Source of the DNA: Gekko japonicus | Taxonomy: Eukaryota | Length of the DNA stretch: 64,000 nucleotides | Reading direction: 5' to 3' | Assembly: GCF_001447785.1 (NCBI RefSeq) | Contig: NW_015162497.1 | Location: forward strand, 413,381-477,380 | Shown here: positions 1 to 48,840 of the stretch, in pieces | Numbering within the stretch: the stretch's first letter is position 1 | Layout of the letters: every line of letters begins with the position of its first letter | Made by a program: the position numbers and the translations under genes | The notes under the pieces: model-generated | What the model was told of the DNA's origin: nothing | Seen by the model: only the letters and a program-made list of their open reading frames with translations | The model's database searches: none

Positions 1-415
1 CTTCCGTTTGGAAGCCGCCGGCTCCCTCCGAATCCTCTACGTGGCCTCGGGGCCCCGATGGCTCGAACATCCACTCCTCGAGGTCTTGCTTGGAATTCCC
101 CTTCTCCGAGGTAGCCCCCGGCTCTGGGAACAATCCCTTGTCAAACAGACTTTCACGTAATCCGCTCCCTCGACGGGAGTACACCTCTCGGGTGCCCTGA
201 GTGTTGTACATAGTCCAGTCATCCTGCTGTTGAGTCTTCCGCGGACCCCAGTGCGAAGGGGTCGGAGGCGGCCAAGACAGATGTGCAGGCCGGCGGGGAA
301 TCGTTCCCCCCACGGCACCCTCCAGCGAGGCTGCCGTCACCAAAGGAGCGGAGGTGTGTGGGACCGATCCTGAATCCCCCTCCGTTTTCGGTAGGTCTCC
401 CTCAGCTCCGCTCAT
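1..415 (-). CDS. N-terminus of a retrotransposon gag-like ORF (partial, no stop within the window)
   Basis: ATG at 415, 35 nt after the PBS. Manual translation is open for 138 codons to the window edge (MSGAEGDLPKTEGDSGSVPHTSAPLVTAASLEG...GGFQTE). Gag identity is inferred from position only. Confidence 0.6.
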   Translation of the reverse strand, partial: MSGAEGDLPKTEGDSGSVPHTSAPLVTAASLEGAVGGTIPRRPAHLSWPPPTPSHWGPRKTQQQDDWTMYNTQGTREVYSRRGSGLRESLFDKGLFPEPGATSEKGNSKQDLEEWMFEPSGPRGHVEDSEGAGGFQTE

Positions 416-883
416 GATCTTGCCAGATTCGGAACGATAGGAGAAAGGGAGTTCTAACAATATGTTGGATCCCCAAGCATCGAGAATAAATCCACGTTTT
501 CAAGAAAAGCAAAATTTATTTCAAAGCGTTGAAGACATACTCAAACACGTTCTTTGTTAGAACTGGGGATACACAGTTAGGGCGAGCATAATAAAGGAAA
601 TTCAAACAGATACATATCCAATGAATAATATTCCCGCTGGCGGGCTAATGAAACGGTTGCGCGCCCAGTCCATGGGAACCAGGCAGAACATCAGACAAAA
701 CACAGGTGCAGTTCTCATGAGATAGCAATAGGCAAGCATTACAGCATCTTCTCCCCCACACATCCACCAGTAGTTATCTTATGCATTCCAGCACAGAAGC
801 AGGATAGTAGAAACAAGCCGGGTGCAACAGGGTAAGGATATGTACACAGAGGTCACAGAAAACAGAATGGCAGCTTGCTGACA
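1..883 (-). mobile_element. 5' end of a Gypsy (Tf1/sushi-like) LTR retrotransposon: 5' LTR 463-883, PBS 450-460, start of gag-like ORF; runs off the left edge
   Basis: On the minus strand the LTR runs TGTCAGC...CCAACA (421 bp), with a TATA-like motif (588-595) and AATAAA (515-520). The CpG-rich interior holds an open ORF. It abuts a CR1 RT fragment at 884. Confidence 0.8.
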
Positions 884-1100
884 CCTTGACTTCCAGAAAG
901 CTTTTGATAAAGTTCCTCATCAAAGGCTCCTAAGTAAGCTCAATAGTCACAGGATAAAAGGACAAGTCCTTTTGTGGATCAAAAACTGGCCTTGGTCCAT
1001 GCTCTGTTTATTGGCACTCCAGGGCAACTGGTTGGCATTTATGTGAAATGGGATGCTGAGCTAGACAGACTGCTGGTCTTATCCAAAAGGACTCTTATGT
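884..1100 (+). mobile_element. CR1 LINE fragment (RT piece plus degraded 3' end)
   Basis: 885-989 translates LDFQKAFDKVPHQRLLSKLNSHRIKGQVLLWIKNW, a CR1 RT motif. It ends in a TCTTATG-type tail. Confidence 0.85.
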
Positions 1101-48741: not shown

Positions 48742-48840
48742 CCACCTACTGCCTGGTCCTTTTTAAATGGAGGTGCCAGGGATTGAATCTGGGACCTTCT
48801 GCATGCAAAGCAGATGCTTCACCACTGAGCCACAGCCCCT
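48742..48840 (-). mobile_element. Squam2-like SINE head
   Basis: GGGATTGAATCTGGGACCTTCTGCATGCAAAGCAGATGC..CCACTGAGCCACAGCCCC. Confidence 0.75.

What the first reader, a model, noticed from the sequence alone, without database searches (positions are those of the whole stretch)
450..595. LTR retrotransposon that appears to prime its own reverse transcription (no tRNA PBS)
Seen: on the minus strand the LTR end is followed by TA and then TTGTTAGAACT (460 to 450), not a TGG-type tRNA PBS. The exact complement AGTTCTAACAA lies inside the LTR (564 to 554), starting 31 nt after the start of a TATA-like TTTATTAT and upstream of AATAAA, i.e. at the expected transcription start. Established: Tf1/sushi-group Gypsy elements anneal the first ~11 nt of their mRNA to the PBS. 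Inference: this is a young self-priming element in a lizard (CpG-rich, ORF open for 138 codons and missed by the ORF track).
Basis: partly seen in the sequence, partly recalled or inferred. Interest (0 to 1): 0.7.

Follow-up and report, generated by a model that had tools for sequence, protein, structure and literature searches.

The report
Self-priming lizard Gypsy with fold-back scars
This is one copy of a young, high-copy jumping gene of the chromodomain Gypsy type, most likely of the known Tf1/sushi group, whose priming site pairs with its own end-repeat in this and many related families, so it likely starts copying itself with its own RNA rather than a host tRNA; about one copy in twelve carries a fold-back at that site.

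Summary
Observation confirmed. The LTR is window 883..463 (421 bp), followed by TA and an 11-mer (460-450) whose exact complement lies at 564-554, 31 nt after a TATA-like box. Other copies in the genome encode Gag-PR-RT-RH-IN-chromodomain with 5-bp target duplications; the RT groups with squamate, then fish and amphibian elements. In related families of the same genome 20 of 23 testable elements have the same pairing (3 failures look like non-element repeats); 14 different 11-mers, 7 of 11 pairs with compensatory changes. Forty copies (against 458 normal, 0 reciprocal) fold back at the 11-mer into inverted U3; 13 of 19 fetched are whole, TSD-flanked insertions, so the fold-back arose before integration. 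Self-priming is likely (0.92), but the transcription start and the primer cleavage were not shown. The mechanism is already proposed in print for vertebrate Tf1/sushi elements, so this is a new member of a known kind. The covariation set and fold-back footprint are new supporting evidence as far as my searches reach; this scan noted self-priming sites, and once fold-back copies, in other genomes before.

The parts
463..883 (-). 5' LTR, 421 bp, TG...CA
   Evidence: Boundaries from flanks of 30 copies and from LTR pairs in L038 and L041
588..595 (-). TATA-like box, 31 nt before the candidate primer
   Evidence: Sequence; AT-rich motif at a similar place in related families; function inferred
554..564 (-). 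Candidate self-primer (predicted first 11 nt of the RNA, LTR positions 320-330)
   Evidence: Exact complement of the PBS; covaries with it; 5' end inferred from fold-back junctions
544..547 (-). Short stretch that can pair with the LTR end (466-463) next to the PBS
   Evidence: 91.7% of cells paired but no change on both sides: inconclusive
515..520 (-). AATAAA, likely poly(A) signal
   Evidence: Sequence; not tested
461..462 (-). 2-nt spacer between LTR and PBS
   Evidence: Sequence; 2 nt in most related families
450..460 (-). Primer-binding site, 11 nt, no TGG start
   Evidence: Identical in 100 of 100 listed of 275 matches; fold-back junction site
416..449 (-). Pyrimidine-rich leader between PBS and gag start
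   Evidence: Sequence; differs between subfamilies right after the PBS
2..415 (-). 5' part of gag (138 codons, runs off the window)
   Evidence: the same frame in copy L033 carries Retrotrans_gag

Best explanation
This is the 5' LTR, primer-binding site and gag start of a young chromodomain Ty3/Gypsy retrotransposon of a squamate that likely primes its own reverse transcription in the Tf1 manner. Shown: element anatomy, exact PBS/R complementarity, compensatory covariation across families, and integrated copies that fold back at the PBS. Inferred: transcription starts at 564; nt 1-11 of the RNA anneal to the PBS 93 nt downstream; RNase H cuts after nt 11 (from Tf1); the 11-mer primes minus-strand DNA; plus-strand synthesis copies the retained primer, so the new PBS is templated by the element's own R start. 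That copying would itself keep the two 11-mers matched. The single-stranded 3' end so made can snap back on its own R start and run into U3, or copy a primer that kept extra 5' sequence, and then switch to an internal site: this likely explains the fold-back copies.
For: Anatomy: Retrotrans_gag, RVT_1, RT_RNaseH, Integrase_H2C2, rve, SH3_Tf2-1, Chromo in copy L033; purine tract before the 3' LTR and 5-bp TSDs. Covariation: 20 of 23 testable elements within 1 mismatch (15 exact), complement 95-106 nt before the LTR end; control 11-mers 0 of 230 exact, 2 of 230 within 1 mismatch. In the alignment of these 20 plus the window, 7 of 11 pairs change on both sides, slid controls 26-44% paired, 0 of 500 shuffles reach the score; RNAalifold finds exactly this helix unaided. 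A subfamily 84% alike keeps both 11-mers while the flanking bases differ. Fold-back junction 40 times, normal 458, reciprocal 0; none keeps leader bases before the switch; none at a GC-rich control hairpin in gag; 26 distinct events in 30 loci; 13 of 19 fetched have both outer LTR ends and a 5-bp TSD; short inverted pieces match the copy's own U3 with its private variants (L044 60/60, L051 60/60, L065 67/67); L087 has its PBS extended in register by the complement of its own subfamily's U3 bases; fold-backs also in 4 loci of three other PBS types. About half of Tf1 cDNA keeps the PBS as a single-stranded 3' end (PMC11042837, passage).
Against: No direct 5' end: three RNA-seq runs show no pile-up at 564 and LTR reads on both strands. 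The 147-nt leader is no more stable than shuffles (z -0.94). The flanking duplexes of the Tf1 'pretzel' show no covariation. The alignment held only elements that had passed the complement test, so its percent paired is inflated, and the test allowed three spacers against one offset for controls. Of 80 gag loci 49 gave no LTR pair and 8 more had no clear end; of 7 of these looked at by hand 3 paired exactly, 1 did not (L215, 3 mismatches), 3 gave no motif. One fold-back search in another family found 0. The tree has no named Tf1 or sushi-ichi row and is the quick tree only. The tRNA check covered 30 genes of unrecorded isotype.
Confidence: 0.92

Rival explanations
1. The 11-bp stem is a conserved structural hairpin of the leader (packaging, dimerisation or poly(A) control), and priming uses a host RNA such as a tRNA fragment.
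For: Covariation alone shows pairing, not priming. The stem encloses AATAAA in a long R-U5 hairpin in most families. The tRNA set tested was small.
Against: 14 different PBS sequences in 21 elements would need many different host primers; no TGG start; best match in 30 tRNA genes has 5 mismatches anywhere, 4 at the 3' end; the one-sided fold-back at the end of the 11-mer fits a DNA 3' end made there.
Confidence: 0.05
2. Self-priming holds, but the primer is often not the capped 5' end: it comes from an internal copy of the 11-mer (3' LTR of the same or a co-packaged RNA, or read-through RNA), and the fold-backs are copies of such 5'-extended primers.
For: Long inverted pieces diverge from the copy's own U3 (L045 19/323, L062 14/321 mismatches) and some run past the LTR start into the integrase region (L056, L062); LTR read-through RNA is abundant.
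Against: Short inverted pieces match the own LTR exactly, as snap-back predicts; the TATA-like box sits 31 nt before the 11-mer; long pieces can be explained by a second switch to a co-packaged genome. This rival concerns the fold-backs, not self-priming itself.
Confidence: 0.3
3. The fold-back junctions are assembly or library artefacts, or DNA-level inversions at a short inverted repeat after insertion.
For: The assembly is fragmented with N runs inside many copies; some tandem copies have no TSD; the double junction of L113 was not clearly spanned by reads or contigs.
Against: 0 reciprocal junctions; 0 at a control hairpin (no denominator measured); intact TSD-flanked copies with many different second junctions; one junction shared by 5 of 30 loci at different sites; the joint is seen in 4 RNA reads with 4 starts (these could be library products).
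Confidence: 0.07

Closest known systems
Tf1/sushi group of chromoviruses; vertebrate V-clade (sushi-ichi, Amn-ichi/-ni/-san)
   Same: Gag-PR-RT-RH-IN order with C-terminal chromodomain, vertebrate host, 5-bp TSD, PBS complementary to the LTR interior instead of a tRNA. Self-priming is stated as a common feature of the group incl. vertebrates (10.1101/2022.12.06.519325 and PMC6317226, passages; both cite Butler et al. 2001, which I could not read). V-clade is stated to occur in fish, amphibians and amniotes (PMC2774666, passages).
   Different: A distinct squamate branch (support 100), 44-49% identical to fish proteins and up to 62% to gecko proteins. Within-genome covariation over 14 PBS variants and the fold-back copies were not found in my paper searches. 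No named sushi or Amn sequence was available for a direct test.
Tf1/Tf2 of Schizosaccharomyces pombe (and Tj1, Tosmo)
   Same: 11-nt self-primer/PBS pairing (PMC7175516, passage: first 11 bases pair, RNase H cuts between 11 and 12); retained PBS tail on cDNA and tandem elements sharing one LTR (PMC11042837, passages) parallel the three-LTR copies here.
   Different: In Tf1 the mechanism is proven by experiment; here only inferred. The three-duplex 'pretzel' is not supported by covariation beyond the central helix. Gag here is followed by a zinc-knuckle-like motif, which fission-yeast elements lack (passage).
tRNA-primed Ty3 and plant chromoviruses
   Same: Ty3 RT is the best solved-structure match (4OL8, E 4e-72).
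   Different: They use a host tRNA; here there is no TGG-type PBS and the site varies with the LTR.

Membership tests
Ty3/Gypsy LTR retrotransposon | LTRs TG...CA, purine tract, TSD | tested here: met
   421-bp LTR pairs, purine tract before the 3' LTR, 5-bp TSD in other copies; the window's own copy has no TSD-matched 3' end visible
Ty3/Gypsy LTR retrotransposon | Domain order PR-RT-RH-IN | tested here: met
   Pfam RT, RNase H, integrase in that order in L033; protease by sequence motif only
Chromovirus | Chromodomain at the integrase C-terminus | tested here: met
   PF00385, 26.6 bits over cut-off 25.1, with SH3_Tf2-1 before it
Tf1/sushi group (V-clade) | RT phylogeny with Tf1, sushi-ichi, Amn elements | tested here: inconclusive
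   Groups with vertebrate chromodomain-type elements (96) apart from fungal and algal rows, quick tree, midpoint root; no named reference in the tree
Tf1/sushi group (V-clade) | PBS complementary to an ~11-nt stretch inside the LTR, not to a tRNA | tested here: met
Tf1/sushi group (V-clade) | The complementary stretch is the 5' end of the RNA | tested here: inconclusive
   No start pile-up in RNA-seq; indirect support from TATA spacing and fold-back junctions
Tf1/sushi group (V-clade) | Three-duplex 'pretzel' structure | tested here: inconclusive
   Central helix strongly supported; 4-bp flanking helix 91.7% paired with no double change; third duplex not found
Tf1/sushi group (V-clade) | RNase H cleavage after nt 11 and priming from it | not testable with these tools
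   Needs particles or an in vitro assay
tRNA-primed LTR elements | PBS begins TGG and matches a tRNA 3' end or half-molecule | tested here: not met
   No TGG; at least 4 mismatches to the 3' ends of 30 tRNA genes of this genome (of 59 found; not a full set)

The most novel reading that the evidence does not exclude
Self-priming leaves a readable scar in genomes: because the plus strand ends in a copy of the element's own R start, roughly 8% of integrated copies fold back exactly at the PBS into inverted U3 and rejoin internally. The scar maps the primer's 5' end without RNA data, gives in vivo evidence for self-priming in an amniote, marks a built-in cost of the mechanism, and seeds deleted derivatives that go on to amplify.
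Probability: 0.6. Interest if true: 0.5.

Novelty: new member of a known kind. Interest (0 to 1): 0.35.

Why it matters
Self-priming is proven only in fission yeast and predicted from sequence for vertebrate Tf1/sushi elements. Here one squamate genome supplies two independent sequence-level tests: compensatory change across many families and integrated fold-back copies. The fold-back count (one-sided, at the PBS, with TSDs) is a cheap test that can be run on any LTR family suspected of tRNA-free priming. The element itself is an ordinary member of a known group.

Tried and rejected
RNA-seq start mapping: three raw-read runs, one study, no pile-up at 564; libraries not suited. No run on record as RNA was listed as an indexed holder; no evidence either way. 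Laying reads and contigs over the double junction of L113 was inconclusive. An early idea that the 11-mer lies inside a longer LTR (second LTRs in L032-L034 are also followed by it) was rejected: LTR pairs in L038 and L041 and solo LTRs end at 463. A within-family test of co-mutation failed for lack of variants (100 of 100 listed identical). The loose pattern gave as many control as real counts, so its totals were not used; 20 of its 100 listed places were picked by eye for odd downstream sequence and checked (4 fold-backs against the own U3, 3 more with truncated LTRs whose downstream sequence resembles inverted U3 of related families, 13 not). L225 was misplaced in the tree (its best RT hit was 29% identical, another element) and ignored; 9 of 20 own-genome families had no long RT hit and were left out. 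Butler 2001, Lin and Levin 1997 and Atwood-Moore 2006 are not held: seen only as citations, so whether they already list reptile elements or describe fold-back cDNA is open. No supplements were read; those of PMC6317226 may list PBS types for vertebrate elements. The window's own copy could not be dated, as its 3' part is not readable.

Full report
Observation. On the minus strand the LTR ends at 463, TA follows, then the 11-mer at 460-450. Its exact complement is at 564-554, the TATA-like TTTATTAT starts at 595 and AATAAA at 520. The frame from the ATG at 415 is open to the window edge, 138 codons. The LTR starts at 883: 30 other copies share sequence up to that point and then diverge (28 at this start, 2 truncated), and LTR pairs in L038 and L041 are 421 bp. 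For a fixed 11-mer the chance of a complement in the LTR is about 7e-5.

What it is. The family is large and young: 1,728 candidates, of which the 40 scored were all 100% identical over 321 nt; 458 exact LTR-end/PBS junctions; LTR pairs with no mismatch in L104 and L115. Beside the window the genome reads N for about 3.1 kb, so the rest was described from other copies. Copy L033 (6.1 kb) encodes Gag, RT, RNase H, integrase, an SH3_Tf2-1 domain and a chromodomain, with a purine tract before the 3' LTR; complete copies have 5-bp target duplications. Named protein relatives are from geckos, snakes and anoles (50-62%), then fish, amphibians and fungi. A quick tree of RT-RNase H puts the family in a squamate clade (100) inside a vertebrate clade (96); it has no named Tf1 or sushi row. 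A squamate host is thus supported.

Covariation. A snake Gag segment found 150 loci in the genome; I fetched 80. Thirty-one gave an LTR pair and 23 of these an ACA end. In 20 of 23 the 11-mer after the LTR has a complement with at most one mismatch (15 exact) 95-106 nt before the LTR end; in the window it is 102. The three failures have no TSD and appear to be other repeats. Control 11-mers further downstream: 0 of 230 exact. In the alignment of those 20 plus the window there are 14 different PBS sequences; 7 of 11 pairs change on both sides, and sliding the partner drops pairing to 26-44%. RNAalifold returns exactly this helix. The alignment was preselected for pairing, so the double changes carry the weight, not the percentage. 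A subfamily 84% alike keeps both 11-mers while the bases on the U3 side and after the PBS differ. None of 30 tRNA genes comes closer than 4 mismatches at the 3' end; this is a partial set.

Fold-back copies. One copy showed the PBS followed by the reverse complement of the U3 bases just before the candidate primer. That junction occurs 40 times, the normal one 458 times, the reciprocal junction expected from a simple inversion 0 times. No junction keeps leader bases before the switch, and a GC-rich hairpin in gag shows none (no denominator). Among 30 of the 40 loci there are 26 distinct events; the inverted piece is 6 to several hundred nt long, and 23 loci return to the sense strand at 19 different places; five share one junction at different sites. 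Of 19 such loci fetched at length, 13 have both outer LTR ends and a perfect 5-bp TSD, and 6 lack one end, so most were integrated in this form. Short inverted pieces copy the element's own U3 including private variants; long ones switch to another variant. L087 has the PBS extended in register by four bases complementary to its own subfamily's U3. Four loci of three other PBS types show the same fold-back, while one direct search in another family found none. Four RNA reads with four starts show the joint; a second lay over a double junction was inconclusive.

Mechanism. Shown: pairing, covariation, one-sided fold-back before integration. Inferred from Tf1: transcription starts at 564, nt 1-11 anneal to the PBS, RNase H cuts after nt 11 (PMC7175516, passage), the primer stays on and is copied into a single-stranded PBS at the plus-strand 3' end, as in about half of Tf1 cDNA (PMC11042837, passages). 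That end is complementary to its own R start and can snap back into U3; copying of a 5'-extended primer gives the same product, and my data do not fully separate the two. Either needs the R 11-mer to be the primer. The same copying would carry any change in the R 11-mer over to the PBS, which explains the tight covariation without selection on both sides. Not shown: the start site (no pile-up) and the flanking duplexes.

Comparison. Self-priming is described as common to the Tf1/sushi group, in fungi and vertebrates (10.1101/2022.12.06.519325, PMC6317226, PMC4600332; passages), and V-clade chromoviruses are described from fish, amphibians and amniotes (PMC2774666, passages). PMC3601003 and PMC5341516 were seen as passages and add background only. 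The primary papers (Butler 2001, Lin and Levin 1997, Atwood-Moore 2006) were seen only as citations. Searches for squamate self-priming (0 papers; 3 listings, none on it by title or abstract) and for fold-back or snap-back products (0; 4 listings, none on it by title or abstract) found no description, within an open-access library. An unchecked note of this scan (e1-9913754) reports fold-back copies in another animal Gypsy clade; I saw it after my own analysis.

Verdict. Real feature, interpretation supported, new member of a known kind. Interest 0.35: the mechanism is expected for this group, while the covariation set and the fold-back scar are useful, testable additions.

Noticed in passing
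window 884-1020 and L031 2900-3490: The left flank of the window LTR and the right flank of a second LTR 5.8 kb away (5 mismatches in 421) are adjacent pieces of one repeat (looks CR1-like, label recalled); two other loci hold them 6 nt apart. There is no TSD, and the second LTR lacks the purine tract and is preceded by 1.7 kb of non-element sequence. Unexplained.
   Followed up: partly
L032, L033, L034: LTR-internal-LTR followed by a second PBS and partial gag cut at different points, no TSD; may be gap-filling artefacts or homology-driven insertions.
   Followed up: partly
L103, L107, L113: Three-LTR copies with matching 5-bp TSDs, like the tandem Tf elements of fission yeast.
   Followed up: partly
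L054, L057, L059, L066, L071: One fold-back-plus-deletion form at five different sites: a defective derivative that amplified.
   Followed up: partly
L032, L033, L034, L038 (gag end); L032, L033, L034, L041 (RNase H to integrase): These copies share an in-frame stop just before the zinc-knuckle-like motif of gag, and the pol frame breaks between RNase H and integrase; programmed recoding or shared defect not resolved.
   Followed up: no
window 463-883: LTR sequence is abundant in RNA-seq on both strands, with many reads running into unrelated flanks: read-through of solo LTRs.
   Followed up: no
window 48768-48839 (-): ARAGORN calls a tRNA-Ala(TGC) gene; may be a tRNA-derived repeat.
   Followed up: no
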